Source of the DNA: Heterodontus francisci
Taxonomy: Eukaryota
Length of the DNA stretch: 64,000 nt
Reading direction: 5' to 3'
Assembly: GCF_036365525.1 (NCBI RefSeq)
Contig: NC_090391.1
Location: forward strand, 11,780,001 to 11,844,000
Within the stretch, counting starts at the first letter, position 1. Every line of letters begins with the position of its first letter. Below the pieces are notes generated by a model. The model was given only the letters and a program-made list of their open reading frames with translations. It did not search any database and was not told the origin of the DNA. Below, one piece after another: positions 29,156 to 55,572 of this stretch. The position numbers and the translations under genes are program-made.

Positions 29156-29378
29156 TTAAATCTGAGAGTTGACCTGGGATTCATGTGGCTACCTGTCAGC
29201 AGTACTGAATTGGGTTGAACTGGAAACAATGTCTGTCTCTCCTGCTCTCTTTACCTTGTTGGGATTGAAAATATGTGTCTGGATCTTGGGATCAGTGTGA
29301 GACTGATTCCATCTGGTGTGCCTGACAGTGGAACTGGTGAGCTGTCTGTGCCTTTACACGCTGGGAATGATCACGTAC

Positions 29379-29449
29379 CTGCTGTGTGTAAGAAGGAGCT
29401 GGGCTGCACGGTTCCTTGGTCCTGGGAAACATCACATCGATTCCAGTTC
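29379..29449 (-). other. Putative internal (apparently non-coding) exon, copy 1
   Basis: Minus strand reads cttctcctttgtgcAG|gaactgg...cacagcag|GTacgt. A homologous exon with the same splice-site arrangement lies at 50184-50267. Confidence 0.55.
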
Positions 29450-29619
29450 CTGCACAAAGGAGAAGTATTCCTTGTAAGACTAGAACAGGTGAGGGTTAGA
29501 ACTTTACAGTTTCATCATTGTCATTTCCACAGTGGGAACCCGGTGATACAAAGTGTCAGTGTTGGACAGCACTGCAGTACAGCAGCACAGTTTTGTCCCC
29601 CCTTACCCTGAACACAGCA

Positions 29620-30300
29620 CAAGAACATAAAAACTAGGAACAGGAGTAGGCCATTCAGCCCTTTGAGCCCTCTCCACCATTCAATGAGATCATGGTTGAT
29701 CTGCTTCAACAACATTTTCCTGCACTATCCATGTAACCCTTGATGTTTTTAACATATAGGGACGAAGCAATCCCCATCTTGAACATACTGAAAGACTGAA
29801 TCTCCACAGCCCTCTGGGGTAGAGAATCCTGAAGATTCACCATCCTCTGAGTGAAGAAATACCTTCTCATCTCAGTCCTAAATGGCCTGCTCCTCATTCT
29901 GAGACTGTATCCCCTGGCTCGAGATCCCTAGTCAGGGGAATCATCCTTCCTGCATTTACCCTCTTGAGCCCTGCAAGAATTTTGTCTGTTTGAATGAGAT
30001 CACCTCTCATTCTTCGAAACTCCAGAGAATAAAGGCTCAGTCTGTTTAATCTTCCCTCATCACGCAATCCTTCATCCCAGGAATTAGTTTGGTGAACCTT
30101 CATTGCACTCACTCTATGACAAGTCTATCTTTTTATAGGTAAGAGACCAAAACTGCACACAATACTGCAGGTACAGTCTCAACAAGGCTCTATTTCATTG
30201 CAGCAAGACATCTTTACTCCTATACTCATCCTCTTGCAATGAAGACCAACATAACACTTACCTTGATAATTGCTTGCTGTACCTGCAAGTTACCTTCAGT
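29620..30300 (-). mobile_element. CR1 LINE 3' fragment
   Basis: Minus ORFs contain LNRLSLYSLEFRRMRGDLIQ and FRTEMRRYFFTQRMVNL. 3' tail ggcctactcctgttcct...ttatgttctt. Confidence 0.9.
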
Positions 30301-30350
30301 GAAAGGAAAGATTAATTAATTGAAAAAATGACAGATTAGATAGCAGGCTT

Positions 30351-33300
30351 TCTCAGTGCTGTCTGATCATTCGTCTACAGTACTGCAGATCCCCACTGCT
30401 GACAGATCATTAGTCGACAGTACAGCAGAATCCCAGTGCTGTCAAATCATTAGTCTTCAGTACTGCAGATTCCCGGTGCTGTCTGATCATTAGTGCACAG
30501 TACTGCAGATCCCCGGTGCTCTCTGATCATTAGTCCACAGTACTGCAGATTCCCAGTGCTGTCTGATCATTCGTCTACAGTCCTGCAGATTCCCGGTGCT
30601 GTCTGATCATTAGTCGACAGGACTGCAGATTCCCGGTGCTGTCTGATCCTTAGTCTCCAGTACTGCAGATTCCCAGTGCTGTCTGATCATTAGTCTACAG
30701 TACTGCAGTTTCCCAGTACTGTCTGATCATTAGTATACAGTACTGCAGATCCCCACTGCTGACTGATCATTAGTCTACAGTGCAGCAGACTCCTGGTGCT
30801 GTCTGATCATTAGTCTTCAGTACTGCAGGTTCCTGGTGCTGTCTGATCATTAGTCTACAGTACTGCAGGTTCCCAGTGCTGTCTGATCATTAGTCTACAG
30901 TACTGCAGATTCCCGGTGCTGGCTGATCATTCGTCTCCAGTCCAGCAGATCCCCTGTGCTGTCTGATCATTAGTTTACAGTACTGCAGATTCCCGGTGCT
31001 GTCTGATCATTAGTCGAGAGTACTGCAGATTCCCGGTGCTGTCTGATCATTAGTCTTCAGTACTGCAGATTCCCGGTGCTGTCGGACCATTAGTCTACAG
31101 TACTGCAGATTCCTGGTGCTGTCTGATCATTAGTCGACAGGACTGCAGATTCCCGGTCCTGTCTGATCCTTAGTCTCCAGTACTGCAGATTCCCAGTGCT
31201 GTCTGATCATTAGTCTACAGTACTGCGGTTTCCCAGTACTGTCTGATCATTAGTATACAGTACTGCAGATCCCCACTGCTGACTGATCATTAGTCGACAG
31301 TGCAGCAGACTCCCGGTGCTGTCTGATCATTAGTCTTCAGTACTGCAGGTTCCTGGTGCTGTCTGATCATTAGTCTACAGTACTGCAGGTTCCCAGTGCT
31401 GTCTGATCATTAGTCTACAGTACTGCAGATTCCCGGTGCTGGCTGATCATTAGTCTTCAGTACTGCAGGTTCCCAGTGCTGTCTGATCATTAGTCTACAG
31501 TACTGCAGGTTCCCAGTGCTGTCTGATCATTAGTCTACAGTACTGCAGGTTCCCAGTGCTGTCTGATCATTAGTCTACAGTACTGCAGGTTCCCAGTGCT
31601 GTCTGATCATTAGTCTACAGTACTGCAGGTTCCCAGTGCTGTCTGATCATTAGTCTACAGTACTGCAGGTTCCCAGTGCTGGCTGATCATTAGTCTACAG
31701 TACTGCAGGTTCCCAGTGCTGGCTGATCATTCGTCTCCAGTCCAGCAAATCCCCTGTGCTGTCTGATCATTAGTTTACAGTACTGCAGATTCCCGGTGCT
31801 GTCTGATCATTAGTCGACAGCCCTGCAGATTCCCAGTGCTGTCTGATCATTAGTCTACAGTACTGCAGATTCCCGGTGCTGTCTGATCATTAGTCGAGAG
31901 TACTGCAGATTCCCGGTGCTGTCTGATCATTAGTCTTCAGTACTGCAGGTTCCCAGTGCTGTCTGATCATTAGTCTACAGTACTGCAGATTCCCGGTGCT
32001 GTCTGATCATTAGTCTACAATACTGCAGATTCCCGGTGCTGTCTGATCATTAGTCTACAGTACTGCAGATTCCCGGTGCTGTCTGATCATCAGTCTACAG
32101 TACTGCAGATTCCCAGTGCTGTCTGATCATTCGTCTCCAGTCCAGCAGATCCCCAGTGCTGTCTGATCATTAGTCTACAGTACTGCAGATTCCCAGTGCT
32201 GTCTGATCATTAGTCGACAGTCCTGCAGATTCCCTGTGCTTTCTGATCTTTAGTCGAGAGTACTGCAGTTTCCCGGTGCTGTCTGATTATTAGTCGAGAG
32301 TACTTCAGATTCTCGGTGCTGTCTGATCATTATTCTACAGTACTGCAGATTCCCGGTGCTGTCTGATCATTTGTCTACAGTACTGCAGATTCCCGGTGCT
32401 GTCTGATCATTAGTCTACAGTACTGCAGGTTCCTGGTGCTGTCTTATCATTCGTCAACAGTGCTGCAGATTCCCGGTGCTGTCTCATCGTTAGTCTACAG
32501 TCCTGTAGATTCCCAGTGCTGGCTGATCATTATTCTACAGTACTGCAGATTCCCTGTGCTGTCTGATCATTAGTCTACAGTACTGCAGATTCCCAGTGCT
32601 GTCTGATCATTTGTCTACAGTACTGCAGATTCCCGGTGCTGTCTGATCATTAGTCTACAGTACTGCAGATTCCCAGTGCTGTCTGATCATTAGTCTACAG
32701 TACTGCAGATTCCCGGTGCTGTCTGATCATTTGTCTACAGTATTGCAGATTCCCGGTGCTGTCTGATCATTAGTCTACAGTACTGCAGATTCCTGGTGCT
32801 GTCTTATCAGTCGTCGACAGTACTGCAGATTCCCAGTGCTGTCAAATCATTAGTCCACAGTACTGCAGATTCCCGGTGCTGTCTGATCATTTGTCTACAG
32901 TACTGCAGATTCCCGGTGCTGTCTAATCATTAGTCTACAGTACTGCAGATTCCCGGTGCTGTCTGATCATTAGTCTACAGTACTGCAGATTCCCTGTGCT
33001 GTCCGATCATTAGTCGACAGTACTGCAGTTTCCCAGTACTGTCTGATCATTCGTCTACAGGACTGCAGATTCCCAGTGCTGTCTGGTCATTAGTCTACAG
33101 TACTGCAGATTCCCGGTACTGTCTGATCATTAGTCTACAGTACTGCAGATTCCCGGTACTGTCTGATCATTACTCGACAGTACTGCAGATTCCCAGTGCT
33201 GTCTGATCATTAGTCTGCAGTACTGCAGCTTCCCAGTGCTGTCTGATCATTCGTCTCCAGTCCAGCAGATCCCCTGTGCTGTCTGATCATTAGTCTACAG

Positions 33301-36168
33301 TACTGCAGCTTCCCAGTGCTGTCTGATCATTAGTCTGCAGTACTGCAGCTTCCCAGTGCTGTCTGATCATTCGTCTCCAGTCCAGCAGATTCCCAGTGTT
33401 GTCTGATCATTAGTCGAGAGTACTGCAGATTACCGGTGCTGTCTGATCATTAGTCTTCAGTACTGCAGATTCCCGGTTCTGTCGGACCTTTAGTCTACAG
33501 TACTGCAGGTTCCCAGTGCTGTCTGATCATTCGTCTCCAGTCCAGCAGATCCCCTGTGCTGTCTGATCATTAGTCTACAGTACTGCAGATTCCCGGTGCT
33601 GTCTGATCATTAGTCGACAGCCCTGCAGATTCCCAGTGTTGTCTGATAATTAGTCGAGAGTACTGCAGATTCCCGGTGCTGTCTGATCATTAGTCTTCAG
33701 TACTGCAGATTCCCGGTTCTGTCGGACCTTTAGTCTACAGTACTGCAGGTTCCCAGTGCTGTCTGATCATTCGTCTCCAGTCCAGCAGATCCCCTGTGCT
33801 GTCTGATCATTAGTCTACAGTACTGCAGATTCCCGGTGCTGTCTGATCATTAGTCTTCAGTACTGCAGATTCCCGGTTCTGTCGGACCTTTAGTCTACAG
33901 TACTGCAGGTTCCCAGTGCTGTCTGATCATTCGTCTCCAGTCCAGCAGATCCCCAGTGCTGTCTGATCATTAGTCGACAGTACTGCAGATTCCCGGTGCT
34001 GTCTGATCATTAGTCGACAGCCCTGCAGATCCCCAGTGCTGTCTGATCATTAGTCTACAGTACTGCAGATTCCCGGTGCTGTCTGATCATTAGTCGAGAG
34101 TACTGCAGATTCTCGGTGCTGTCTGATCATTAGTCTTCAGTACTGCAGATTCCCGGTTCTGTCGGACCTTTAGTCTACAGTACTGCAGATTCCCGGTGCT
34201 GTCTGATCATTAGTCTACAGTACTGCAGATTCCCGGTGCTGTCTGATCATTAGTCTACAGTACTGCAGATTCCTGGTGCTGTCTGATCATTCGTCTCCAG
34301 TCCAGCAGATCCCCAGTGCTGTCTGATCATGAGTCGAGAGTACTGCAGATTCCCGGTGCTGTCTGATCATTAGTCGAGAGTACTGCAGATCCCCAGTGCT
34401 GTCTGATCATTAGTCGAGAGTACTGCAGATTCCCGGTGCTGTCTGATCATTAGTCGAGAGTACTGCAGATTCCCGGTGCTGTCTGATCATTAGTCGAGAG
34501 TACTGCAGATTCCCGGTGCTGTCTGATCATTAGTCGAGAGTACTGCAGATTCCCGGTGCTGTCTGATCATTAGTCGAGAGTACTGCAGATTCCCGGTGCT
34601 GTCTGATCATTAGTCGAGAGTACTGCAGTTTCCCGGTGCTGTCTGATCATTAGTCGAGAGTACTGCAGATTCCCGGTGCTGTCTGATCATTCGTCTCCAG
34701 TCCAGCAGATCCCCTGTGCTGTCTGATCATTAGTCTACAGTACTGCAGATTCCCGGTGCTGTCTGATCATTAGTCTTCAGTACTGCAGATTCCCGGTTCT
34801 GTCGGACCTTTAGTCTACAGTACTGCAGGTTCCCAGTGCTGTCTGATCTTTCGTCTCCAGTCCAGCAGATCCCCAGTGCTGTCTGATCATTAGTCGACAG
34901 TACTGCAGATTCCCGGTGCTGTCTGATCATTAGTCGACAGCCCTGCAGATCCCCAGTGCTGTCTGATCATTAGTCTACAGTACTGCAGATTCCCGGTGCT
35001 GTCTGATCATTAGTCGAGAGTACTGCAGATTCTCGGTGCTGTCTGATCATTAGTCTTCAGTACTGCAGATTCCCGGTTCTGTCGGACCTTTAGTCTACAG
35101 TACTGCAGATTCCTGGTGCTGTCTGATCATTCGTCTCCAGTCCAGCAGATCCCCAGTGCTGTCTGATCATTAGTCGGGAGTACTGCAGATTCCCGGTGCT
35201 GTCTGATCATTAGTCGAGAGTACTGCAGATCCCCGGTGCTGTCTGATCATTAGTCGAGAGCACTGCAGATTCCCGGTGCTGTCTGATCATTAGTCGAGAG
35301 TACTGCAGATTCCCGGTGCTGTCTGATCATTAGTCGAGAGTACTGCAGATTCCCGGTGCTGTCTGATCATTAGTCGAGAGTACTGCAGATTCCCGGTGCT
35401 GTCTGATCATTAGTCGAGAGTACTGCAGTTTCCCGGTGCTGTCTGATCATTAGTCGAGAGTACTGCAGATTCCCGGTGCTGTCTGATCATTTGTCTACAG
35501 TACTGCAGATTCCCGGTGCTGTCTGATCATTAGTCTACAGTACTGCAGGTTCCTGGTGCTGTCTTATCAGTCGTCGACAGTACTGCAGATTCCCAGTGCT
35601 GTCAAATCATTCGTCAACAGTGCTGCAGATTCCCGGTGCTGTCTCATCGTTAGTCTACAGTCCTGTAGATTCCCAGTGCTGGCTGATCATTAGTCTACAG
35701 TACTGCAGATTCCTGGTGCTGTCTTATCAGTCGTCGACAGTACTGCAGATTCCCAGTGCTGTCAAATCATTAGTCGACAGTACTGCAGATTCTCGGTGCT
35801 GTCTGATCATTATTCTACAGTACTGCAGATTCCCGGTGCTGTCTGATCGTGAGTCTACAGTCCTGCAGATTCCCGGTGCTGTCTGATCATTAGTCTACAG
35901 TACTGCAGATTCCCGGTGCTGTCTGATCATTAGTCTACAGTACTGCAGATTCCAACTACTGTCTGATCATTACTCGACAGTACTGCAGGTTCCCAGTGCT
36001 GTCTGATCATTAGTCGACAGGACTGCAGATTCCTGGTGCTGTCTGATCCATAGTCTACAGTACTGCAGATTCCCGGTGCTGTCTGAGTATTAGTCTACAG
36101 TACTGCAGATTCCCAGTTCTGTCTGATCATTCGTCTACAGTACTGTAGATCTACAGTACTGTTTGATT
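30351..36168. repeat. 40-bp satellite/minisatellite array (~145 units), consensus GTCTGATCATTAGTCTACAGTACTGCAGATTCCCGGTGCT
   Basis: Exact 40-bp period. Units stay in register with the 10-bp print blocks across the whole array. Confidence 0.98.
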
Positions 36169-36809
36169 GAAGACTTCTGGTTGATCAGCATACACATAAT
36201 GGCACACACTTCGAATAGCCTGCAAAGGCAAACAAAGCATATATGATAATGTTGACATGGTAGGTTGAACAATTTCTAGCATTGACATTTAATACAATTT
36301 TACATAATGGTACCTGTCACTTTTTTAAAGAAGAATATTTTTTACGCCAAATTCCTTGATGTCATTAGTGAATTTCAACTCTGAAAAGCTTTCAGAGGGT
36401 TCATCTATCCATTGAGATCTTTGTTTATCTGGCAGTGCCACAAAAACATACAATCTAAATGAGTTGGTTCAAAGGTGAAGATTGGAGCCACAATGTCAGT
36501 GATTGTTTGGTCATGAGTTAAACAGAAACCCATGGAGTTGTGCCCAGACAGGTTGTCCCACACTGTACCAGTATCGTATTGCTTAAAATAAACACAGCAA
36601 TTGCCAGAAGGTTCAGTAAATGTGATTATACATTATGTAAACTCCTGCTTTTCAGGTTGAAATACTTGCCGCAAGTTTATCCAGTGAGGAGCTGAGATGC
36701 AGAGAGCAGGAAGGTCCGGAATAATTAATTATTATAAAATATGCAGTATTTGTATTAAAAATATAACCTGTTCACTGTCAGGACTCTAGTCTACACACAC
36801 ACACAGTAC

Positions 36810-37142
36810 CTGACCGAACCACAGCGGACCCGAGCCCAACCCGATCATTCCTTTACTTCCCTTCCTGACACCCAACCTGCAAGATGCTACACCGCATGCG
36901 TAATGACGGCAAAGTGCCGGCACCGGCTCACTGCGCAGACTCAATTCCGACCCGGACTCCCATCTCCGGTCAGTTATTTTAAATTTCAATTCTGACCAGC
37001 AGAGACTGACTGAGTGTGTCCGACCCGAACCCGAACTGGACTCGAACGCGAAAGCCGGAGCCGCAAGCTGGGCTCGAGCCGAGGCGGACACATGTGCTCG
37101 GGTCCCGCTCGGTTTGGACTCGAGTCTCCAGGCCTCGAGTGT
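36810..37142. mobile_element. Possible non-autonomous DNA transposon/MITE remnant, CpG-rich
   Basis: Imperfect inverted repeats ccgaaccacagcggacccgagc (~36813) and gctcgggtcccgctcggtttgg (~37096), plus internal CCCGA repeats. Not seen in the paralogous region near 51,250. Confidence 0.35.
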
Positions 37143-37260
37143 CCATTCCACACAGTCCGCGACTCCCGCTGAACTTCCCGCTATTCAATGTTAATCTCTG
37201 AACACATCTGCAGACTCGCTCCCAAACCTGGTGTTGCTGCTTTAAGCAGATGTTGTTTGT

Positions 37261-37425
37261 TCACTTACCCCGGGACGCGGATGTCTCTATTCGCAGCTGA
37301 TTTAAACAATCTTCCACTCACTCACTGAATGACGCTCAGAGACAGTGTTGGGGGGAAGAGGAGCGCATGCGCTCTTCTCAGTATGATGAAGAAAAGTGGG
37401 CGGGGCTACACCGCGCGTGCGCATA
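37261..37425 (-). promoter_or_regulatory. CpG promoter and first exon with splice donor, copy 1
   Basis: NRF1-type palindrome GAGCGCATGCGCTC at 37361-37374, GC box GGGCGGGG at ~37398, second GCGCGTGCGC at ~37413. Minus-strand donor G|GTAAGTGA (GT at 37268-37267). Paralogue at 51,255-51,590. Confidence 0.55.
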
Positions 37426-38919
37426 TCTCTGCAACAAAACTCAATGGGAACTTTCGCCATTTCACCCTCATCAATGTGTGAACAATGAAACTGAACATGG
37501 GGTTAGGGTGGAGGGAGGGTGGGGAGGGGTGGAGGGAATCTATAACCTAGAAAGCCGGGAGCTGATCCCATTTAGATGTTCAAATTGCCGTCTCTCCCTG
37601 CAGGGTGTTTGTTATTATTGAGACCCTCCTCTCAAAACAATCCGACAGAAACATGGGAGGAAGGAGGGAGTCGCTGTGTTTGCTGGGACCTTGTAGAATT
37701 CATTTCAGCCAGAAAAGGTTTGTCCAACCGGAGTGAAACCCGCGGTCAATGTGAGTAATACCGAATGGCGAACTTCATCGTTTCAATCTAAACAAGAGAC
37801 ACGGAGCTGCCGCGATTATACCGGACATACAAAAACAGTGACAATAGAGCCCATACCAGAGTTTCAGCTCCCGGCTGTTAAATGTCCTCATCTGCACAGT
37901 CTTTTCAGGGCTCAGTTGCCGATGTCTAGTCCTGTATCCCTGAAACACTCGGAACCAGGAGATCCTCGAACTCCCTGTTGAAAGATTTTTGGACAGGAAT
38001 TTTTCCAGCCTTTGGTCCAGTCGATCATAACCTGCTGTTCAAACATAGTATTATTCAAACAATTAATGTGAAATTCTGTTAACTACTCAGGCCTTGAACT
38101 GGGTTTGAGCAGAGCAACTCCTGAAAGATTCAGCATCTTTCCAGATATTGCAGCCATGCTGGATAGAGGGACTCAGGGTTTAATCCTGCACACACACAAC
38201 AGAAGGAGTGACAGTCACACAGGGATGGGAACTGGTATCATTTCTGTCGCCTACTCACCCAACAGGCAGAGTTAGAAACTGATTAAACATCCAACCCAGT
38301 GTAATTCAGTACTGGAGAAATACAGAGGCTCTTCCACTCCATCCTTCCCTCCCATACACACGGCAGATTGACAGCACAAGGCCTTTCAGGTATCATTTCT
38401 GTGACCACGAGTTTCACTCCGATGATATTAAACAGAGACTATCAGATGTTTATCCTTCATCCTGGAAATATTCGGACTCACTCTTACACTTCTACCAGAA
38501 TGTTTTGGCCAAATGAGGAGCCGCCCCTGCACCCGCTCTCCTGTCTTATTCAGACAACCTTCCAGTCTCAACGTCACACACGTTAACAATAATTTGCTTT
38601 TGATCAATATGACTCAAAGATTGTTTGCAGCGCCAAATATTTGGACAAATATCCCAAATATTTGTACAAATATCCCATATCCTCGACATCACCATGATTC
38701 CAACCAGGCAGAATAGTGAGAGTGCAGGTAAAAAACAAAACATGTTTCTAAAAGAGTATAAGATAATATTAATGAGTAGCAACCAAGAGAAACAAAAATA
38801 ATTTATAAGTAAACAAAAATGCAAAATGATAGTGCAAGAAATTGCGGAGCTATTCGGAATAAAGAAATGAAATTTCCTTGTGTTGGAAAAGGTAATGAAT
38901 GACAGCGTTATATGTCTGA

Positions 38920-39560
38920 TCACACAAACAAGGATGAAGTTAATGTCCCAGTAGAGGAGGGGTGCAGAGATATTGGATAGAATGAAAATAGACAGAAAGG
39001 AGGTTCTCAATAGATTGGCATCACTTTAAGTTAATGAGTCCAGATAGAAAGCATCTCAGATTGCTGAGGGAGATAGCAGAAGTCCTGACGACAATGTTTG
39101 GATACTGAAGTAGTTCCAGTCGACTGAAGGATGGCAAATGTTACACTCCTGTTCCAGAAATGGGAAGGAAAAAGCTGGTGACTACAGACCAATGAATTTA
39201 GTCATCAGTGGTCAAAAACAATTGGAAACAAGTGTCAACGATCAAATAAACTTCAACTTGAAGAATAATGAGTTAATAAGGGACAAGCAGTACCGATTTG
39301 GTAAGGACAAATCATGTGAGACTAACCTGATTGAATTCTTGTGATTGACTTTGCTGAAGGTAGTATTACAGATATTGGATATCTGCTTTTTGAAAGGCAT
39401 TCGATCAAGTTGTGCATAACAGAGTTACACATAAAATAAAAGTTCATGTTAAAAATTGATACTGGTATGCTGAGATAGTAGTTGGCTAAAGGATAGGAGA
39501 CAGAGTGTCGTAGTGAACTGATGTCTTTTTAATGCGAAGATGTATTCAGTAGGGTGACAC
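38920..39560 (+). mobile_element. Degraded CR1 LINE fragment (RT N-terminal part)
   Basis: GDYRPMNL and FGKDKSCETNLIEF match CR1 NYRPVSL and GF.KG.SCLTNL.EF motifs. Confidence 0.75.
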
Positions 39561-40129
39561 AGAAATTTTTATTAACAACATTGCTTTTATAGAGACCATA
39601 ATTTGGAAGGTTGAGGAGGGCAAAATACATAGCAATGTATGTAAATAGTAAAGAGCTGTAAGTTTGAGGTAGATGTTACCTGAACAGAGGTGAGACAGAG
39701 GATACCCAACCTGTCTCACCTTGAGATTCTGGACCAAGATGGACCTACAAGGTACAGAGTCAAGTTCTGTGATCAGGTCAGAGAGTTTATTGGGCTTAAC
39801 TAAGATGCACAAAGTTAATCCTTAACAACAGCAATAAGTATACCGGAACACTCTATACTGGTTCTTGCTTCTGAGCTTGCTGGGACATGGACTTCTCTCC
39901 TTCTTCTTCTCTTGCTGTGTTGACCATAGTCTATCTTCTCCTTCTAAGTGTGCCAACAATGTGCTGTTCACCGCTTGCTAAGTGTACCGATAATATTCCC
40001 TATCACCATTTCTTTTACCCTTCGTGGGGTGTTGGGATCTGACAATATTAGGTTCTGAATTGTTCGGGGTATCCTAATTGGTTCAATCTATACACTTCAC
40101 AGATGCTTCCTGTGTCTTTCACTTTCAGC

Positions 40130-40560: not shown

Positions 40561-40787
40561 CAACTCTGTCGCGTTGTTTTACTGTATATTTCTGTTCCAT
40601 GTTGAGTCAGTGCGTCAAGAATTAAACGGTTGTATTTGATAATAAATTCTTGAGGGCCGATTCAAACTGTGTTGACAGACAGTGGGGGATCTCAGACGAA
40701 ATAAATGAAACCACAAAAGCTCAGATTTCATAATTCTTCAGGCCAAGTTAGATTTTTTTACTCTTTACATTGTTTTCTCATCGGAAA

Positions 40788-41425
<638 letters not shown>

Positions 41426-41468
41426 ACGCATCCTGCCCCAAACTGAGTTTGGCATCAAATAACACAAC

Positions 41469-41512
41469 GGCTCTTTTAAGAGCCACCAAATCGGCAAAAC
41501 AAAGAGCTGCGA
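41469..41512 (+). terminator. Histone 3' stem-loop and downstream element (H3-A)
   Basis: GGCTCTTTTAAGAGCC at 41469-41484; purine-rich AAAGAGCTG at ~41501. Confidence 0.92.
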
Positions 41513-41715
41513 TCTCCTGTCATCGATTCCAGCAGAGAAAACTGTGCTCCAGAACAGATCATTTTATTAGAGCTTCAATCATTTGGGGACTCAACAAAAG
41601 CTTTATTTGTGCATAAACCCTAGAATTGTTAAAATGCCGAATAAATATCTCCAGAGGCAAGCGGCTAAATCCCGTCTCTCAGACAGTCACCAGCTCTTTC
41701 TCAGATAAAGTGGGT

Positions 41716-41983
41716 GTCTCTGAAAAGAGTCTTTGGGCCAGCTGGTGATGTCTGGGGATGATGCGGGTCTTCTTGTTGTCCGGGGCCGCGTTACCGGCCA
41801 GCTTGCGGATTTCAGCTGTCAGATACTCGAGCACAGCAGCCAGAGAACCAGGGCTCCGGCTCCCCTACGCTCAGCATAGTTCCCCATTCTCGGGATATAG
41901 TGAACACGGCCCACCGGGAACTGCGGTCCAGCCCGGGAGGAGTGAGACTTGGCCTTGGCCCAAACTTTCCCTCTTCCAGACAT
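41716..41983 (-). pseudogene. H2A: Histone H2A pseudogene, truncated
   Basis: ATG at 41983-41981 (ATGTCTGGAAGAG). Colinear with H2A at 57376-57765 but has small deletions and lacks everything after about codon 86. Fused to a mutated stem-loop (GACTCTTTTCAGAGAC, 41716-41731). Confidence 0.9.
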
Positions 41984-43944
41984 CCCCCTCCCCCCAAAAA
42001 AATAGATTCTTCATAAAAATCTATAAAAACTACAATTCAAAACAGTTCAGGAAGAATGATCAAATCCGTCCACCTTTACCTTCTGGATGAATGATCGTGA
42101 GGACACTGGTGATTGGTCACTCTGTGCAGCTTCTCATTGTGTTGTTCGTGTGACCAATCAGATAGTTGCTTAGTTCACCAATCCGGAGACATCACTTCAA
42201 TAGGGCGGAAAATAACTGCTCCGGATTGGCAGACTCCAAACCGTTTCTTTTTCAAATTTGAAAGGCCTGCCAACAGATTTGTAAAACAAGGAGCGGCTTC
42301 ACTCGATATCACGTTAACAGATCATATAGCCTTACGACAGGGATGTAAAAATATCCCCTATATTGTATTGTTTCACATTTTCTCAAAAGTTCCAGATTCG
42401 CTTTTCCAATCCGGCATCTATTCGGATTCATTCTCTGTCCTGTTTTAAAACAGTCTGTAACCGGCAGGCAAAGAAGCCTCATTCACAGCATTCTGTAACC
42501 GGATACATTTCTGATCAATGTGAAAAAAACACATCACACATTATAAATTGGTTCCTATTCGTGGGAGACAAAGGAGGACTGTCCATTTTCAGTGTGAGGT
42601 GTTAAAGAGTGAGACTGAGGGTTCCTACACCACCGGGGTTTCTAAATAATGTACTTATTAATTATTGAAGCTAAACGTATGGGAGTCTGGGCCTTTCCCT
42701 TTATCTGTTAGTGTCCGATATGTGAATTTGGAGTTTAATCTGTACCTGTCAGTTTCTGTTATGGAAGGTTGTTTGATTTTGCCTCTGTACCTGTTAGTCA
42801 GTAATATGTTTGTGTAGCTTTACACTGCACATGTTAATTGATGATGTGTCAGTGTTGTTTTCACTCTACATGTCAGTCTCTGGTTTGCAAGCCTCGACTG
42901 CATTCTGTACCGATCAGACGTCTACACATGAGGGTGGGTTTTAACCTGTTCCTGCCAATCTGTTTTATGTCAGTACTGTTTATTATCTGGATCTGTAAGT
43001 TTCTGATGAATGAATGTGGACTGTATTGTATCCCTGTCAGTGATCATGAAGAGTTATTTTACACTGTAACTGCCAGTATCTGAAATCCGAGTGTGGGTTG
43101 TGATCTGCATCTGCCTGTTTCTGGTATGTGACATGAGCATTGTTTTCCCTTGGTGTGTGTGAGCCTCACGTGTCAGAAGCTGGGTTTAATTGTACATCTC
43201 ACTCTCTGCTGTCTGGTTGTGGATTTTCATCTGGAAAGTTAATTTCTGATATGCGCGTGTGAATTTTATTCTGTGTGCCAATTTCTGGGATGTGAGTGTG
43301 TGTTCTTTCTGTTCCTGTCAGTTTCTGACATGTGAATATGGATTTCCCTCTGTTCTGGTCAGTTACTGCAATGAAAGTCGCTCCTTTATTCTGTGCCTGT
43401 CAGTTTCTGGTCTGGAAGAAAGATTTTTATTCTTTACCTTTTATATACTGACAAGTGAATGTGAGCTCACCCTGTATCTGTCAGTTTGTGACAGTTACTG
43501 TGTCTTTTACTCTTCACCTGTCAGTTTCTGATATGTGAATGTGGATTTTATTCTGTACCTGTCAGCTGCTGCAAAGCAAGTATGTATTTTATTCTGTACC
43601 TGTATGTTTCTTGGAATTGATCGGAGCTTTTACTCGATATCTGTCAGTCTCTGGAATGTGAATGTTGCTATTACTCTGTGTCTGTCGGTGTCTGACTTGT
43701 CAGCAAGTGTTTTACTTTCCCTTTCTGTTCCTGACATATGAATGTGGATTTTACTATGTATCTCTCAGTTACTGATATGTGATTGTGGATTTTATTCTGT
43801 ATGCACAAGCCTATGATTAGTGATTGTGGCTTCTGTCCTAGACCTGTCACTATCTTGTTTCATATGTCCATTATTCTGTGCATGTTACTTTATGGGGAAT
43901 GACTGCAGGCTTTATACATTTCCTGCCATATTACCACTATGACT

Positions 43945-44530
43945 TCAAGAGCTGGTCAGAAGCCGGAGATTCTGTGGTTAGTAACTCACGTCCTAACTCC
44001 TTAAAGACTTTCGACCACTGACAAGTCACAAGTCAGAAGTCTGATGTATTACTGCCCACTTGCCTGGATGTGTGCACCCCAAACAACATTCAAGAAACTC
44101 TATACCATCCAGGACAAAGCAGCAGGCTTGATTGGCTGACCATTCACCAGATTAGCTTTTTACTCCCTCCACCAACAGTGCACAGTGTGGACCATCTACA
44201 AGATGTACTGCATCAACCTGAGGAAGCACCGTGAACAGAACCTTTCAAACATCTGCTACCAAGTAGAACATGGGCAGCAAACGTATGAGGACATTATCAC
44301 CTGCAAGTACATCTCCAGTTCATATGTCATCCTGACTTGAAAATATAACACTATTCCTGCATCATCACTCAGTCCAAATTCTGCAACTCCCTACCTAACA
44401 CCACTTTGGGTGTACCTACACTACAGAGACTGCAGGGAGCAAGAAGGCCGCTCGACACCATCTTCTAAAGGGCAATGAGAGATGGACAACAACTACTCTC
44501 CTTTCTACAGATGCTCACATCCCATAAACA
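43945..44530 (+). mobile_element. Non-LTR retrotransposon 3' end (L2/CR1 superclade)
   Basis: Degenerate RT C-terminal DNA (acaagtcacaagtcagaagtctgatgtattactgcccacttgcctggatg; accatccaggacaaagcagc) followed by a 3' UTR. Interrupts the degenerate repeat field. Confidence 0.7.
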
Positions 44531-45112
44531 TACACTACAAATAATCATAAAGGTGTGTATATGAATAACATTCGTTCTGTGTCTGTTCATCACTGGTACA
44601 GTATGAGTGTGGAAGTCATTCTCCATCTGTCACTCTGAAAGACAGGATCTGTTTGTTTATATTTAAGGAACAATGATGGAACTCTTACACAGCTAGATCT
44701 GTCCAACTATCTGTCTCTCTTTGTTTGGTTTGAGAGGTGAGGGATTCATTCTTTATCTCAGAATGTGGAATGTGACTGTGGGTTTTTCTCTTTATCTGTC
44801 AATTACTGATAAACAGATGTGGGTTTTCCACTGTACCTGTCTACATCTGATGTGAGTGTGGTTTTAACTCTTTTCTGTTAGTATCCGATGTATGAGCATG
44901 TGCTTCAATCTACCTGCCAACTTCTGATGTGAGTATGGGTTTTATTATTTATCTATCAGCTTCTGGTATGTAAGTGTTGGTTTTGTCATGTACCTGTCAG
45001 TTTCTGCTGAAGTGAACAGTGGTTTTGGTTTGCATCTCTCACTATCTGTTATGTGATAATGAGTATTGTTTTGTCCTTGTCAATTTCTGGAATAGCAGAA
45101 AGCACATAATAC

Positions 45113-45318
45113 AAAGCAAAATATTGTGAATGCTGGAAATTAAAAACAGAAAATGCTGTAAACACTCAGCAGGCCTGCCAACAACTGTGGAGACAGAAAC
45201 AGAGTTAACCTTTCAGGTCAATGGCCGTTCATCAATGATCTGAAATGTTAACTGCCTCCCTCTCTCCACAGGTGCTGCCAGACTTGCAGAGTATTTCCAG
45301 CATTTTCTGCTTTCATTT
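45113..45318. mobile_element. Palindromic Penelope-like terminal-repeat element
   Basis: Left arm aaaacagaaaatgctg...ctgtggagacagaaacagagttaac is the imperfect reverse complement of right arm gttaact...ctctccacag...tccagcattttctg. The same family occurs at 50365-50482. Confidence 0.65.
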
Positions 45319-48300
45319 ACACTGTACCTTTTATATTCTGGCAAGTGAATGTGGGATCACTCTTCATCCTTTCATTTCTGATGTGTGAATGTGGATTTTA
45401 CCCAGCATGTTGTCATTTACTGCAATGCAAATACCTGTTTTATTCTGTACCTTTTTGTTTGTGGTAATTGATTGTGGGTTTTACCCTGCATTTGTCAGTC
45501 TCTGTAATGTGAATGCCGCTATTACTCTGTATTTGTCTGTGCATGATTTGTGAGGATATGTTTTACTTTCGCTGTCTGTTTCTGGCATGTGAATGTGGAT
45601 TTTGCTATGTACCTCTGAGTTACTTTATGTGTATGTGGGTTTTATTCTGTTTCTGCATGTCTCTGACAAGTGTAACGTTTTCCCTGTACCTATCGATATC
45701 ACACTTGTCAGTGTGGCCATTATTCTGTACGTGTTGCTTTATGGTAGTGCTTTTCCTGTCAATATCTGATATGCTACTATACATTTTATTCTGTACTTGT
45801 CAGATTCTGTGACGTGATATTGTTTTTCTCTGTCTATGTGTGTCTGGTATGTCATCATCAGTTTTACTGTGTACCTATTAGCTTCTAGTATCTGAGTATT
45901 AGGTTCACATTGTATATTTCAATTTGTTCTGTGAATCTGCTTCGGCCTTGAACTGACAGTTTCTATTCTGTGACTGGTCATTGAAAGGATGATTGTTAAT
46001 TTCTGCTCAATAGGTATTTATTTAACTCTGTTCATGTCAGTCTCTGCAATGGGAATTTGTGATTTATGCTGAATCTGCCATTTGTTTATCTTGATGGCAT
46101 GCTTAATTCTGTTCCTGTCAGTCTCTGTTTTTAAGGTATTTTTTCTGAGTATTTGTCAGTCTCTGACGTGTGAGTGTGGGATTTCCTTTGTGGCTGTAAG
46201 TTTTTAATGTGAATGAGAGGTTTTTAATTCTGTACATGGCAATCCTGAAAAACGAGCATGGGTTTTACTCTGTAACCCTCATACTCTGGTATTTGTGTTT
46301 GTGTCTTGTTCTTCTCATTACCTGTCTGTTTCTGAAAAGTTTGTTTGAATTTTACTTTGTACCAGTTACATACTGATCACTGTTTGTGGAGTGTACTCTG
46401 CACCTCTCACTTTCTTATGTGATTGAGATTTATATCTGTACCAGTCAATCTCTGGTATTTGCATCTAGATTTTACTCCACATCAGTCTAACTCAGAATTG
46501 TGAGTGTTGTTTTTTAGCTTGTTTCCTTTGTACTTTGCAGTATGGATCTGTAATTGTCACTTTCTGGTATTTGTGTGTAGCTTTTCTTTCATGTCTCTCA
46601 GTCTCTGTTGTGTTTTTCTGTATTGGGCGGGGGGTGAGTGGGTTTGCTTCATGCCTGTCAGTTTCTATATGTTAGTGCAGTTTTATTTTCTAGTGGGTGA
46701 GTGTTTTTTTTTCACTTCTTTTGCTGTATTATTCAGTTCCTTGGATACGGGTGTAAGTTTCACTCGATGTCTCTCTATCCCTCGTCTATAGTTTATCTCT
46801 GTCAGTTTCTGATTTTGAGTGTGGTTTTATCTGTACCTGTCACTTTGTTTTATGTGAGAAACGTTTTATTCTGTATCTTTCAGTTTCTGATGTTTGTTTG
46901 TGTGTCTTGAACTTCTGCCCCTCAGTTTATTGCATGTGAATGTGGGTTTGACTGTTAATCTAACACTCACTTGTATATGAGTGCTGTTTACTCTTCATCT
47001 TTGATTGTCTGGTTTGTAAATTTAAGTTTTAACCTGTTCATTTAAATTTCTAATGTGCAGGTCTGGTTTTTAACCTGTCTATGTCATGTTCTGGTATACA
47101 AGTATGTGTTTCAGTCTGGCTTTTGAGTCTGGATTGTACACCACATCTCTACATTCTCTAGAATATGGGTGTGATTTTTAATCTGTGAGATTTACTTTGT
47201 ACATTTCATTCTCTGGTCTGTGACTGCTGAATTTATTCTGTATCTGTCAGTTTATGTTATGTGAGTGTGAGTTTTAGTCTGTATCTGTCAGTATCTGGTA
47301 TATAAATCTTCTTAATTATGTGTGAGTTTTAGTCTGTATCTGTCAGTTTATGTGATGTGACATTGAGTTTTAGTCTGTATCTGTCAGTATCTGGTATATA
47401 AATCTTCTTAATTATGTGTGTGTTTTATTCTGTATCTATCAGTATATGTTATGTGAGTGTGAGTTTTAGTTTGTATCTGTCAGTATCTGGTATATAAATC
47501 TTCTTAATTATGTGTGTGTTTTATTCTGTATCTGTCAGTGTGTGAAGTGCAAGTGTTGGGTTTTCTTTGTACCTGTCAGTTATGGATGAGAGATCTTCAC
47601 TCTCTAACAGTAAATTTCTTGGAATTCACTGTGGATTTCACTCTGTGTCTGTCATTCTCTGGTGGTTGAGTGTGGCTTTTAGACTGCATTTGCTATTTTC
47701 TGATATGTCAATGTAGATTTTAATCTTTAGCTGTTATTTTCTAGTATGCGAGTCTGGGTGTCAATCTGTCACTGTCAGTTTCTCATATGTGAGGGAGGCA
47801 GTTATTCAACACCTGTTACTTTCTGAAATGTATGAAGGTTTTTATCTTTCCCTGTCAGTTTCTGGTATGTGATTGTTGCCTTTGTTCTGTCCCTATCTGT
47901 TTCTGTGAATGGAATGTGGGTTCTGTTCCTGTCAGTTTCTGGTATGTGATTGTTGCCTTTGTTCTGTCTCTATCTGTTTCTGTGAATGGAATGTGGGTTC
48001 TGTTCCTGTCAGTTTCTGGTATGTGAATGTGGGTTTATGCTGTATCTTTCAATCTTTGGAATTTGATTATGTGCTTTCTGCAGCACCTTTTAGCTTCTGT
48101 TAAGTGAATGAGATGTTAATTCTGCACCTGTCCATTGATAGTATATGAATGTTTATTTTACTTTGTACCTGTCAGTTTATGGAACATGAAAGTGTTTCCC
48201 ACCCCATCCCCCGCCCCGCTCCCCCCCCGCCCCCCACCCGTCAACTTCCAATATGTGACTGTTGTTTTATTCTATACCTGCCATTTTCTGTATATGATTC

Positions 48301-48889
48301 TGGTTTTTGATCTTTACCTGTCAGTTTCTCTTACTTGAGTGAGTTTTACTTTGCACCAGTTGGTTTCTGGAATGTGTCACTTTTAAGCTGCACCTGTAAA
48401 GTTAAGATATAACACTGTGGGTTAATTCTGTATCTTTCAAACTCTAGTGTGTGATATGGGGATTTTCTCTGAACCTTTCGATTTTTGGTCTGTGTGTTTT
48501 AATCTGCAGCTTACAGTTCCTGATAGGTGTGTTTGCACATTTTCTTTTTTTCTGCAGCTATCAATGTCTACTACACAAGTATGTGTGTTCTTCCTATCAT
48601 TCAATTTCTCTTATTGGAGAATTGATTTTTCTTTGTCCCTCTTAGTCTCTGGTATGTGTCCATGTGTCTTACGTGGTAACTGCAGTTTCAGTTAGGTGAC
48701 TCTGGTGTTATTCTCTATCTGACAGTCTCTTGCATGTGAGTGGTTTTATTTTCTTCTCTGTAGCTGTCAGTCTCCCTTCTGTGGCTGGAGGTTTTAATTT
48801 TTACTTTAACTCTTTAATAGTTTGTAAATGTGAATTTTACTCTGTCTGTCTGTTTACTGTATATGGGTATGTTTTTTGAAATCATCAGT

Positions 48890-49890
48890 TTCATAGAATC
48901 ATAGAAAGTTTAAGGCACAGAAAGAGGTCACTTAATCCCACCTTCCAGGATTTGTTCCTGAACCCTGTAGCTTATGGCACTTGAGGTTCATATTCAGAGT
49001 AGTTTTGAACCAGTTGAGGGTTCCTGCCTCAACTATCCTTTCAGGTAATGACTTCCAGACCCCCAACACCCTCTGGGTGATTTTCTTTCCCTCATCTCCC
49101 CTGCAATTTTTCTACCAATCAAAACAAAAGAACAAAGATAATTACAGCACAGGAACAGGCCCTTCGGCCCTCCAAGCCTGCGCCGATCCAGATCCTCTCT
49201 CTAAACATGTTGCCCATTTTTTAAGGTTCTGTATCTCTTTTCTTCCTGCCCATTCATGTATCTGTCTAGATACATCTTAAAAGACGCCATCGTGCCCGCA
49301 TCTACCACCTCCGCTGGCAATGCGTTCCAGGCACCCACCACCCTCTGCGTAAAGAACTTTCCACGCATATCCCCCCTAAACTTTTCCCCTTTCACTTTGA
49401 ACTCGTGTCCTCTAGTAATTGAATCCCCCACTCTGGGAAAAAGTCTCTTGCTATCCACCCTGTCTATACCTCTCATGATTTTGTACACCTCAATCAGGTC
49501 CCCCCTCAACCTCCGTCTTTCTAATGAAAATAATCCTAATCTACTCAACCTCTCTTCATAGCTAGCGCCCTCCATACCAGGCAACATCCTGGTGAACCTT
49601 CTCTGCACCCTCTCCAAAGCATCCAAAGCATCTATGGCCCTCATCAATGACCTCTCTGTTCAGACCCTTCACCTCCACTCTGTCCAGGTCCCTCAAAATT
49701 CTGTACATTTCAATCAGCTCTTCCCTCAGCCTTCACTGCTCCAAAGAGAATATTCCCAGCCTATCCAATCTTTCCTCACAGCTGCATTTTTTCAGTTCTG
49801 GCAACATCCTCAGAAATCTCCTCAGTACCCTCTCTAGTGCAATTGCATCCTTACTGTAATGAGGTGACCAGAACTGGACACAGTTTCAGG
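48890..49890 (-). mobile_element. Older CR1 3' fragment interrupted by a younger CR1
   Basis: Tail catagaatcatagaaa at 48,892. The element resumes at ~49,645-49,890 (ctggcaacatcct, aggtgaccagaactggacacag). Confidence 0.8.
49121..49640 (-). mobile_element. Young CR1 LINE 3' fragment (nested)
   Basis: Uninterrupted ORF 49201-49647: LERVQRRFTRMLPGME...LGLFSLERRRLRGDLIEVYKIM...FFTQRVVGAWNALP. Separate 3' tail. Confidence 0.92.
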
Positions 49891-50183
49891 TATGTGAGGG
49901 TGAGATTCAGTCTCTATTTTACTGTATCCAGGATGTGTCTCTCTTGTGAGATTGATATCGTGCCTTTCAATCTGATCATGGGTGTGCTTTTGAATTGAGA
50001 TTGATGTACCTAACATTCAGCAGTACAGAATTGGAATGGATTAGAAGCAATGTATGTCTCTTCTGCTTTGTTTGATTGCTGTATTGAAAATATGTCTCTG
50101 AACTTGGGATCAGCGAGAGTTTGACTACTTGTGCTCCATGTGACTCTGGAATTAACTGATGGCCTCCAGGAGTGATAACATAC

Positions 50184-50267
50184 CTACTCTATGTTGTAAG
50201 GAGCTGACTGCACATTTCCTTGTGCCTGGGAATCATCACATTCATTCTGTTCCCTTGAAGTATTTGC
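50184..50267 (-). other. Putative internal exon, copy 2
   Basis: Minus strand reads ttcttcctttctgcAG|gcaaatac...atagagtag|GTatgt. Homologous to 29379-29449, including the flanks. Confidence 0.55.
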
Positions 50268-50361
50268 CTGCAGAAAGGAAGAACAATATCTCTTGTAACT
50301 GAAGATCAGTTGAGGTGGAAGCTTAAGAGATAAATGTAACATTTCAATTAATAATCATTAT

Positions 50362-50482
50362 TACTGACCCGGAACGATAACTCTGCTTCCTTTCCACAGA
50401 TGCTGCCAGACCTGCTGAGTGGTTCCAGCATTTCTTGTTTTTATTTCAGATTTCCAGCATCCGCAGTATTTTGCTTTCATTA
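50362..50482 (+). mobile_element. Penelope-like terminal fragment flanked by 37-bp direct repeats
   Basis: ccacagatgctgccagacctgctgagt...tttccagcatccgcagtattttgcttt. Direct repeats at 50325-50361 and 50483-50519. Confidence 0.65.
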
Positions 50483-50726
50483 AAGAGATTAATGTAACAT
50501 TTCAATTAATAATCATTATGACTAACCACAAATACTCACCAGAAATACAAAGAATGTCAATGTCTGATTTCACTGCAGAATAAAGCATCTGCTGACCAGG
50601 TGTTTTGACCGATTTACAGCAATTTAGTGACATCCAGAAACAAGCCAACATCTGCACTGCTCCAAGATTGGGATTACCTGAGGGATGTTTGTGTAGATCA
50701 GGTTTCTATTTCCACCTGACATTATA

Positions 50727-51040
50727 ACATAAGAACCTAAGAAGTAGGAGCAGGAGTAGGCCATTCAGTCTCTCGAGTCTGATCGGTCGTTCAATAAGAT
50801 TATGGAGGATCTAATCGTGGATTCAGCTCCATTATCCTGCCTGCTCCCAGAACACATTACTCCCATGGAGATCAAAAGTTTAACTGATCCTTGAATATAT
50901 TTAACAACCCAGCCTCCACTGCTCTTTGAGGTAGAGAAGTCCAAAGATTAATGACACTTTGAGAGAAGAAATTCCTCCTTCCCTCCGTCTAAAATGAGGG
51001 ATCTCTTATTCTGAAACTGTGCGCCCGACATCTTGATTCC
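50727..51040 (-). mobile_element. CR1 LINE 3' fragment
   Basis: Tail aagaacctaagaagtaggagcaggagtaggccattcag, same subfamily as 29,620. Confidence 0.8.
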
Positions 51041-51160
51041 CCTATTCACTGTACACTCACAGTAAACAGCGTGAAACAGGAGTTAAACCACCAACATGTA
51101 TTACAGAACTGAGGCGAGGATCAGCAAAGATTTTCAACAGCAGCTTAATCACGTTCTGTC

Positions 51161-51540
51161 TCACTTACCTAGTGCACACACAGGCCGAGAAAGGCCTCTC
51201 CATTCCGCCGCTCACTCCATGTTCCGGGAGCAGTTCATCCTCCACATTGCCTCTCACAAACAGCCCGCGACTCCCCCTGAACTTGCCCCGGAGTCAATGG
51301 TGATCTCTGATCCAGACTGCGGACAGGGTCCCAAAGCAATGTGCTGCTGGAAGCAGATTGCTGTTTGCTGCCTTCCCCCTAGGCCGTAATATCTCCATTC
51401 ACTCCTTTAAAAACAAACTCTTTCCGCTCACTGAGTAGATGGTGTTCAACAGATTTGCTGGAGGAGTGGAGCGCGCATGCGTACATTCGCTCATTCACAA
51501 TCAGCGGGAGGGGCGGGTTAATACCGCGCATGCGCCGCAA
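51161..51540 (-). promoter_or_regulatory. CpG promoter and first exon, copy 2
   Basis: GCGCATGCG at 51473-51481, GC box at ~51510, GCGCATGCGC at 51526-51535. Donor AG|GTAAGTGA with GT at 51168-51167. Aligns to 37,150-37,460. Confidence 0.55.
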
Positions 51541-52049
51541 TCGGCAATAGTTTGAAAAACAAAAATCAATCGGAACTTTCTCCAGTTCAGTTTTATCTGA
51601 TTTTGAGCAATGGAACCGGGACTGTGGGCAAGATTAGAGAAGGTTTCCAGCTGGGAGATTACCCCTTTACCAAGCTCAACTTGAGATCATTCTCTGCACT
51701 ATCTTTGCTGTTCATTAGCTCGAATTCTCAAAGTGATCCTCCGAGGGAGTCGATGTGTTTGCCGGAATGGGGCAGGAGTTAATATATGACAGTTACAGTC
51801 ACAGATCAATTTAATCAGATTGAAACTGTCTGTCACTGAGAGTCAGAGCGAAGGGTTTGAGCTGAAAGATTACAGAGTGTTCAACAGGACGGAGAAAGTT
51901 ACATTTGGGACATTGTATGCCTCACTCTCTGACACTTTCCCGGTCTGTGAGATTAATAATGTGTCTTTCTCTGGCACCATATCAGTGAGAGATGAGATTG
52001 TAACGTCTGTTTCCCCTTTCGAGATAAAACGAATCATACATTTCAGCCG

Positions 52050-54470: not shown

Positions 54471-54506
54471 AACTGCACGGGAAACTTGTAGACATCTGAA
54501 CCCAAA

Positions 54507-55206: not shown

Positions 55207-55251
55207 GGCAGCAGAAACAGCTCGTTTCTCATTCAGCAACGATTTGAGTGA

Positions 55252-55572
<321 letters not shown>

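What the first reader, a model, noticed from the sequence alone, without database searches (positions are those of the whole stretch)
29180..51600. Duplicated, unannotated minus-strand spliced transcription unit paired with each histone module
Seen in sequence: two non-TE segments are paralogous (29,180-29,500 with 50,000-50,320, and 37,150-37,460 with 51,255-51,590). Each pair keeps functional-looking signals on the minus strand: a twin NRF1-type GCGCATGCGC/GC-box promoter, a GTAAGT donor, and a short exon with a polypyrimidine-CAG acceptor and AG|GTA(C/T)GT donor (71 and 84 bp). These signals persist although the surrounding sequence has diverged. Each unit points away from the histone genes to its right. 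No coding exon is visible in the window. Inference: this is a gene family (lncRNA, or the 5' UTR exons of a gene whose CDS lies elsewhere, such as a C2H2 zinc-finger gene) co-duplicated with histone modules. Copy 2 would run toward the H2A pseudogene in sense and H3-A in antisense.
Basis: partly seen in the sequence, partly recalled or inferred. Interest (0 to 1): 0.7.

Follow-up and report, generated by a model that had tools for sequence, protein, structure and literature searches.

The report
Spliced noncoding unit in histone arrays
In this likely shark genome a promoter with short spliced, non-coding exons is copied hundreds of times, mostly among histone genes; its exons drift about as fast as neighbouring repeat debris while one promoter site stays nearly fixed, so it likely acts through promoter activity rather than through its RNA.

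Summary
The two segments are real paralogues and belong to a large family: 473 exact matches to one family motif, mostly in histone arrays. Splicing is shown for the copy-2 type. Likely-RNA contigs of two organisms join exon A to exon B at the predicted 51169/50267 boundary, and two independent intron-less copies in the genome carry the same junction, which points to germline transcription. The copy-1 junction (37269/29449) is unconfirmed. No zinc-finger or other coding exon follows; the exon has no codon signal. Most units run into an A/C-rich 41-46 bp repeat tract on their own strand. The claim that splice signals are specially preserved fails: exon, splice sites and repeat motifs diverge about as fast as intronic repeat relics, and the two GTAAGT donors are not homologous. 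Only the proximal NRF1-type site stands out. Best reading: a non-coding transcription unit co-amplified with histone modules, whose promoter is the likely selected part. The exon downstream of exon B was not found. The histone genes in this window are decaying, and there is no H2B. The scan noted this family before on other DNA of this genome.

The parts
51473..51535 (-). Copy 2 promoter core: two NRF1-type sites around a GC box, CpG-rich
   Evidence: CpG o/e 0.75 against 0.16-0.19 in spacers; proximal site 0.5 changes per column against 2.13 overall; motif labelled NRF1 in PMC3575792; binding not tested
51169..51413 (-). Copy 2 exon A; start approximate; early donor dead, late GTAAGT donor after 51169
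   Evidence: contigs cover 51175-51413 and depth is 0-1.3 over 51422-51715; junction letters; contigs cannot fix a start
50540..50580 (-). Optional small exon, GTGAGT donor after 50540; 5' edge not determined
   Evidence: loose end of one organism-B contig at 50268 matches this stretch (one search read)
50184..50267 (-). Copy 2 exon B, 84 nt, non-coding
   Evidence: intron-less genomic copies; no codon periodicity
49856..50183 (-). Read-through block past the exon B donor, shared by the family
   Evidence: present in the C26 processed copy and in contigs; aligned across 66 copies
42753..48771 (-). Degenerate 41-bp repeat tract, A/C-rich on the unit's strand, broken by mobile-element pieces
   Evidence: low contig cover over 47600-48775
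37363..37422 (-). Copy 1 promoter core: variant distal and intact proximal NRF1-type site, GC box
   Evidence: CpG o/e 0.95
37269..37306 (-). Copy 1 exon A, predicted; early GTAAGT donor after 37269; start inferred by alignment to copy 2
30356..36150 (.). 40-bp satellite (145 copies) inside copy 1's predicted intron
   Evidence: only a short array or none in C45 copies
29379..29449 (-). Copy 1 exon B, 71 nt, predicted
   Evidence: 40 of 40 scored genome hits at 94-100%
29169..29378 (-). Copy 1 post-exon block, homologous to that of copy 2
1..27774 (-). 46-bp satellite, A/C-rich on copy 1's strand, related to the 41-bp tract; the array runs 66 kb in all
41015..41971 (.). Context: decayed H3 (+, 41015-41425) and H2A pseudogene (-, about 41736-41971)
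53720..57765 (.). Context: H1, H4, H3 (+) and H2A (-), carrying many substitutions; no H2B

Best explanation
Both segments are copies of one spliced, non-coding transcription unit that was amplified together with the histone-array spacers, and the promoter is likely the part under selection, predicted to act locally on histone-array chromatin rather than through the RNA. Shown: the family, its anatomy, the exon A/exon B splice for the copy-2 type, the lack of coding signal, and near-background divergence of exons, splice sites and repeat motifs. Inferred: NRF1 binds the conserved site and keeps the CpG-rich promoter unmethylated; polymerase II starts about 60 nt downstream; exon A is joined to exon B, and the RNA then either reads into the A/C-rich repeats or splices to an exon not found here; intron-less copies in the genome imply germline transcription. 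Untested: any effect on histone genes. This window's own module looks like a decaying outlier of the family.
For: Junction letters at window 50268/50272 are exon A ends of paralogues, in runs of organisms A and B; one maps to a single-copy locus with GT-AG edges. Processed copy on C26: 29 nt of exon A joined exactly to exon B, 97.3% over 413 nt to C45 copies, followed by a LINE-like tail. A 31-nt junction piece on C49, one event copied 12 times. 473 motif matches; the first 100 listed lie on five contigs and none on C1-C20. 30 of 32 promoter-bearing units in 834 kb lie within 25 kb of a histone gene. Proximal NRF1-type site: 0.5 changes per column against 2.13, 3 of 421 windows as low; 27 of 33 promoters keep at least one intact site. 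Between subfamilies exon A is 79-83%, exon B 86-90%, repeats 80-88%, intronic repeat relics 81-85%. Precedent for promoter- and splicing-based local effects: 10.1101/050948 (abstract and opening).
Against: No test of function exists here; the cis role is by analogy. The promoter alignment was gathered by similarity to the promoter, and columns are not independent, so the NRF1 signal may be inflated; another 10-mer inside exon A is as well kept. 11 of 43 exon copies had no promoter within 9 kb. Four type-1 sites on C21 have no intact histone gene in the 30-40 kb fetched around each. The acceptor AG is lost in 10 of 58 aligned copies and in 6 of 12 copies of the subfamily with the highest contig depth. 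The runs are only guessed to be RNA, are unstranded contigs, and differ from the window's copies, so expression of these two copies is not shown. Contigs end at the exon B donor with an unseen continuation, so a downstream exon that changes the reading may exist.
Confidence: 0.45

Rival explanations
1. Neutral passenger: the 5' end of a lost gene was trapped in the histone spacer, rides along with segmental duplications, and still fires without a role.
For: Exon, splice sites and repeat cores show no constraint above intronic relics; promoter-less and acceptor-less copies are common; a SINE-like piece sits inside exon B of an expressed copy.
Against: The proximal NRF1-type site, CpGs included, is far better kept than other promoter columns (0.5 changes; other CpG columns 2.7); the unit occurs in all eight histone-bearing stretches assembled, across 25-30% divergence.
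Confidence: 0.3
2. Distal spliced leader for H2B or H2A, giving a message independent of the S-phase promoter.
For: The first downstream histone gene is H2B or H2A on the same strand for 17 of 32 promoter-bearing units; the highest-depth subfamily lies 13-17 kb upstream of H2B and its contigs stop at the exon B donor.
Against: Same-strand is automatic because the modules' end genes point inward (27 of 27). No H2B in 264 kb around the window or 200 kb of C45. Copy 1 leads into satellite, copy 2 into an H2A pseudogene. The AG 12 nt before the H2B start is absent in the C35 and C21 copies, and one of four C45 H2A copies lacks the matching AG. Human spliced histone messages splice at the 3' end (PMC5100578, passages).
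Confidence: 0.12
3. Repeat-scaffold RNA: the product is the A/C-rich repeat transcript, which binds many copies of an RNA-processing protein at the histone locus.
For: 24 of 29 repeat blocks have a same-strand unit as nearest 5' feature; read-through past exon B is seen in contigs and in the C26 copy; contigs cover the tract.
Against: Repeat cores differ between subfamilies as often as non-core bases (41/315 vs 150/1155; 62/357 vs 192/1113; 47/307 vs 192/1163); tracts vary from none to 66 kb; no conserved structure in the exon or post-exon block.
Confidence: 0.1
4. 5' UTR of a zinc-finger gene, or a transposable element.
For: Promoter and short-exon anatomy fit a 5' UTR; copy number is high.
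Against: No C2H2 array downstream; no Pfam hit for the two longest frames; copies cluster on few contigs; intron-less copies are rare (13 matches, two events).
Confidence: 0.03

Closest known systems
lncRNA loci that act through promoter, transcription or splicing (10.1101/050948; abstract and opening paragraphs seen)
   Same: Spliced non-coding transcript with little sequence constraint and a better-kept promoter next to regulated genes.
   Different: Those are single-copy mouse loci with measured cis effects; this is a family of hundreds of copies inside histone arrays, with no effect measured.
Read-through transcription of histone-locus satellite DNA in newt and Xenopus oocytes (seen only as cited in PMC11602149, passages)
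   Same: Histone clusters interleaved with satellite DNA that is transcribed, with a germline link.
   Different: There transcription starts at histone promoters; here a separate CpG-rich promoter with spliced exons points into the repeats.
Spliced, polyadenylated human histone messages HIST1H2BC, BD, BK, HIST1H2AC (PMC5100578, passages)
   Same: Spliced RNA from within replication-dependent histone clusters.
   Different: Those use the histone promoter and a donor after the stop codon; here the exons lie upstream and no link to a histone coding sequence was found.
Repeat-rich scaffold RNAs such as Drosophila hsr-omega (named in earlier finding e1-9817747; otherwise recalled, not read)
   Same: Spliced 5' part followed by a tandem-repeat tract on the sense strand.
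   Different: Here the repeat motif shows no constraint and the unit is multi-copy.

Membership tests
Spliced long non-coding RNA | GT-AG spliced transcript over 200 nt | tested here: met
   Copy-2 type only: exon A about 245 nt plus exon B 84 nt; junction in contigs and in two processed copies
Spliced long non-coding RNA | No protein-coding capacity in the known exons | tested here: met
   Changes by codon position 54/60/61; 17 of 66 copies have a stop in the frame examined; exon lengths include 71, 91 and 92 nt; no Pfam hit
Spliced long non-coding RNA | These two window copies are themselves transcribed from the minus strand | tested here: inconclusive
Spliced long non-coding RNA | Cap, poly(A) tail and complete exon chain | not testable with these tools
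   No raw or long reads were listed; exon after B not found
5' UTR of a C2H2 zinc-finger gene | Zinc-finger array downstream on the same strand | tested here: not met
   Only isolated single motif hits in 834 kb plus 20 x 9.9 kb
Upstream leader of H2B/H2A | Intact same-strand H2B or H2A downstream | tested here: not met
   For the window: no H2B in 264 kb, H2A is a pseudogene; met for other subfamilies
Upstream leader of H2B/H2A | Conserved acceptor before the histone start and a junction to it | tested here: inconclusive
   Weak, variable AG sites; no junction seen, but the data could not show one
Transposable element | Dispersed insertions across the genome | tested here: not met
   First 100 of 473 matches lie on five contigs, none on C1-C20
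Transposable element | Match to a curated consensus | not testable with these tools
   No Dfam or Repbase library on hand
snoRNA host or structured RNA | Rfam match or conserved fold | tested here: not met
   Only histone stem-loops in window 27000-64000; 0 hits at E <= 1 in 3 loci; SCI 0.03-0.12, mean z about 0 for 14 representatives
Repeat-scaffold RNA | Tandem repeats on the sense strand downstream of the spliced part | tested here: met
   24 of 29 repeat blocks
Repeat-scaffold RNA | Repeat motif under constraint | tested here: not met
   Core and non-core differences equal in three comparisons, p 0.66-1.0
Repeat-scaffold RNA | Nuclear retention and protein binding | not testable with these tools
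   Needs fractionation, FISH, pull-down

The most novel reading that the evidence does not exclude
Shark histone arrays carry a dedicated, distributed regulatory system: hundreds of NRF1-driven spliced units that keep the arrays open outside S phase and in the germline, with head-to-head pairs reading into inverted satellite arrays to make fold-back RNA, and some subfamilies feeding a leader onto H2B.
Probability: 0.15. Interest if true: 0.75.

Novelty: new variant of a known kind. Interest (0 to 1): 0.42.

Why it matters
Replication-dependent histone clusters are usually described as intron-less genes in inert spacers. Here the spacers hold hundreds of separate spliced transcription units, active in the germline by the evidence of processed copies. 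If their promoters help run the arrays, this is a second control layer for histone genes and a natural many-copy test of the idea that some non-coding loci work through promoter and splicing, not RNA sequence. If they do not, it is a clear case of a live promoter multiplied as a passenger, which matters for annotating large fish genomes.

Tried and rejected
No RNA holder was listed as on record; the seven runs are guessed RNA with word shares of 0.04-0.12. The first lay was swamped by mobile-element contigs and its joint table showed none of the exon joints. Searches for processed copies that would reveal the exon after B found only genomic copies with a G-to-A donor change (2 hits, read: 5 hits, all at places already listed); exons starting with G were not searched. 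The first junction pattern was one base off and gave 0 (corrected). The copy-1 junction pattern gave 0. 12 of the 13 junction matches are one duplicated 31-nt piece, counted as one event (9 of 12 fetched). '27 of 27 first downstream histone genes are same-strand' was rejected as a geometric artefact. A 92-105 residue frame from an ATG in exon B was rejected: not kept across subfamilies, no Pfam hit, no candidate among proteins of 57-184 residues (longer ones not searched). C/D and H/ACA snoRNA readings were rejected. AATAAA excess on the sense strand (21 vs 0) is near what 41% A gives (about 15 by my arithmetic). A giant satellite intron on C21 32 Mb was sampled and not supported. A look-up of earlier findings by sequence gave nothing.
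Full report
Setting. The window is G000:C21:11,780,001-11,844,000 of a 6.0-Gb genome; 'shark' is my inference from genome size and repeat types and from earlier notes. Bases 1-27,774 are a 46-bp satellite and 30,356-36,150 a 40-bp satellite. The histone genes are decaying: the two H3 frames differ from the majority by 4 and 10 residues and H2A by 12, while 9 of the 10 other full-length H3 copies examined differ by none.

Observation. The coordinates, exon lengths and motifs are as stated and the paralogy is far above chance. Two claims do not hold. First, the signals do not stand out from their surroundings: between the two copies the exon is 78% identical, the post-exon block 74%, and two intronic stretches 68% and 75%; those stretches are high-copy repeats by contig depth, and I take them for old mobile-element relics. 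Second, the two GTAAGT donors are different sites. The family has an early and a late donor; copy 1 keeps the early one, copy 2 has lost it and keeps the late one.

Family. Exon B of copy 2 gave 726 first-look candidates and that of copy 1 gave 442, 40 scored each. A 26-27 base family motif has 473 exact matches; the first 100 listed lie on C21 (29), C26 (1), C28 (10), C35 (29) and C45 (31), none on C1-C20. In eight contiguous stretches (834 kb, chosen around hits, so not a random sample) there are 65 histone loci and 43 strong exon copies; 32 have a promoter upstream and 30 of those 32 lie within 25 kb of a histone gene (7 weaker or short hits of 50 dropped). Of 70 listed motif sites on C21, C28 and C45, 47 lie within 35 kb of a listed match to one H4 motif, which misses some H4 variants. 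Four C21 sites of the copy-1 type had no intact histone gene in the 30-40 kb fetched. The pairing is strong but not strict.

Anatomy. Promoter, exon A, sometimes a small middle exon, exon B, a shared block of about 330 nt, then often a tract of 41-46 bp repeats that is A/C-rich on the unit's strand. Of 29 repeat blocks, 24 have a same-strand unit as nearest 5' feature. Copy 2 runs into the decayed tract at 42,753-48,771; copy 1 runs into the 46-bp array, which extends 66 kb and ends at a broken inverted partner. No zinc-finger array follows any unit examined.

Splicing. Seven runs were listed, all guessed RNA, two studies, all contigs; five were laid. Depth is 0-1.3 over 51,422-51,715, upstream of the contig starts, and rises over exons A and B. 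Loose ends at 50,268-50,272 are exon A ends of paralogues in organisms A and B; one matches a single locus on C45 whose exon edges are GT-AG and whose exon B holds a SINE-like piece seen in both organisms. Several contigs end at 50,183-50,184, the exon B donor, and in runs X1 and X3 the unspliced continuation has depth about 8 against 16-780 for the exon pieces, so an alternative continuation likely exists; its letters were not shown. One organism-B contig reads through that donor. The highest-depth letters match a 31-copy subfamily on C45, not this window. Independent of the RNA guess, C26:11,899,971-11,900,411 holds 29 nt of exon A joined exactly to exon B and 328 nt of read-through, 97.3% identical to C45 copies, followed by a LINE-like tail. 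A second event left a 31-nt junction piece, with this window's allele at the exon A end, duplicated 12 times on C49. Such copies imply spliced RNA in the germline (inference).

Constraint. On a tree of 66 distinct copies, exon columns change 2.08 times on average and post-exon columns 2.0-2.6. The acceptor AG changed 7 times against a mean of 4.85 for 40 other AG pairs; the donor GT 3 times against 4.89 for 18 others, 5 of which were as low. Between subfamilies, exon A is 79-83%, exon B 86-90%, repeat tracts 80-88% and intronic relics 81-85%; repeat cores differ as often as non-core bases. Exon B is thus at most slightly better kept. There is no codon periodicity, and 17 of 66 copies carry a stop in the frame examined. 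No Rfam family or shared fold. The exception is the proximal NRF1-type site: 0.5 changes per column against 2.13 in 33 promoters, with 3 of 421 windows as low, and promoter CpG o/e of 0.75-0.95 against 0.16-0.19 in spacers. The NRF1 label for this 10-mer is from PMC3575792 (passages); that NRF1 binding goes with unmethylated DNA is recalled.

Mechanism. I commit to a non-coding unit whose promoter is the likely selected part and which would act locally on array chromatin (0.45). The neutral-passenger reading is close behind (0.3). A leader for H2B or H2A (0.12) cannot apply to this window, which has no H2B within 264 kb and only an H2A pseudogene downstream, but is not excluded for the C45 subfamily upstream of H2B. 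The observation that all 27 first downstream histone genes are same-strand carries no weight, because module end genes point inward. A repeat-scaffold RNA (0.1) lacks motif constraint.

Known systems and novelty. It works most like lncRNA loci with promoter- or splicing-based local effects (10.1101/050948, abstract and opening). It differs from newt histone-satellite read-through, which starts at histone promoters (PMC11602149, passages), and from human spliced histone messages, which splice at the 3' end (PMC5100578, passages). Five library searches listed no description of such a family; a 2025 shark and ray genome preprint mentions histone clusters beside tRNA loci and has no occurrence of 'lncRNA' or 'satellite' in its main text (10.1101/2025.06.08.657570, passages; its supplements are closed and could bear on this). 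PMC2114352 was seen as abstract and one reference line only. The library lacks most subscription journals, and public gene annotations could not be checked.

Verdict. Real, spliced, non-coding and multi-copy; function not shown. New variant of a known kind; interest 0.42.

Noticed in passing
window 1-27774 and G000:C21:11,741,094-11,809,522; also C45:17.555 and 17.694 Mb, C21:30.72, 32.71, 37.09 Mb: Copy-1-type units sit head to head in inverted duplications centred on the 46-bp array; in the window the array has grown to 66 kb (17 motif hits on the left unit's strand, 1267 on copy 1's). Read-through would give fold-back RNA.
   Followed up: partly
window 41015-41971 and 53720-57765: All histone genes of the window carry many substitutions or frameshifts, unlike the C45 copies; near-identical unit copies lie at C21:4.2 and 5.1 Mb, C2265 and C175.
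   Followed up: partly
G000:C21:11.68-11.94 Mb and C45:17.53-17.73 Mb: These histone modules have H1, H4, H3 and H2A but no H2B in 464 kb, whereas C45:8.7-11.2 Mb and C35 modules have H2B.
   Followed up: no
L121:9971-10000 with L122:1-860: Chimeric processed copy: the unit's RNA is joined to a LINE-like 3' tail at a point where the transcript itself holds an old LINE piece, which suggests a template switch.
   Followed up: partly
L126:1502-1850: A 31-nt spliced-junction piece abuts the head of a SINE-like element and was duplicated 12 times across 5 Mb of C49.
   Followed up: partly
L089:2520-2610: A SINE-like fragment inside exon B of a single-copy, expressed paralogue, present in contigs of both organisms.
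   Followed up: partly
L104-L113 (C35:20.51-20.61 Mb): Thirteen exon B copies in 100 kb, in both directions, outnumber the eight histone loci; two tRNA-Met genes lie among them; an H2B and an H2A appear cut at the 5' end next to retrotransposon pieces.
   Followed up: no
window 60520-60799: A further short patch of the 46-bp repeat lies right of H2A, downstream of a third promoter just outside the window at C21:11,845,112-11,845,453.
   Followed up: no
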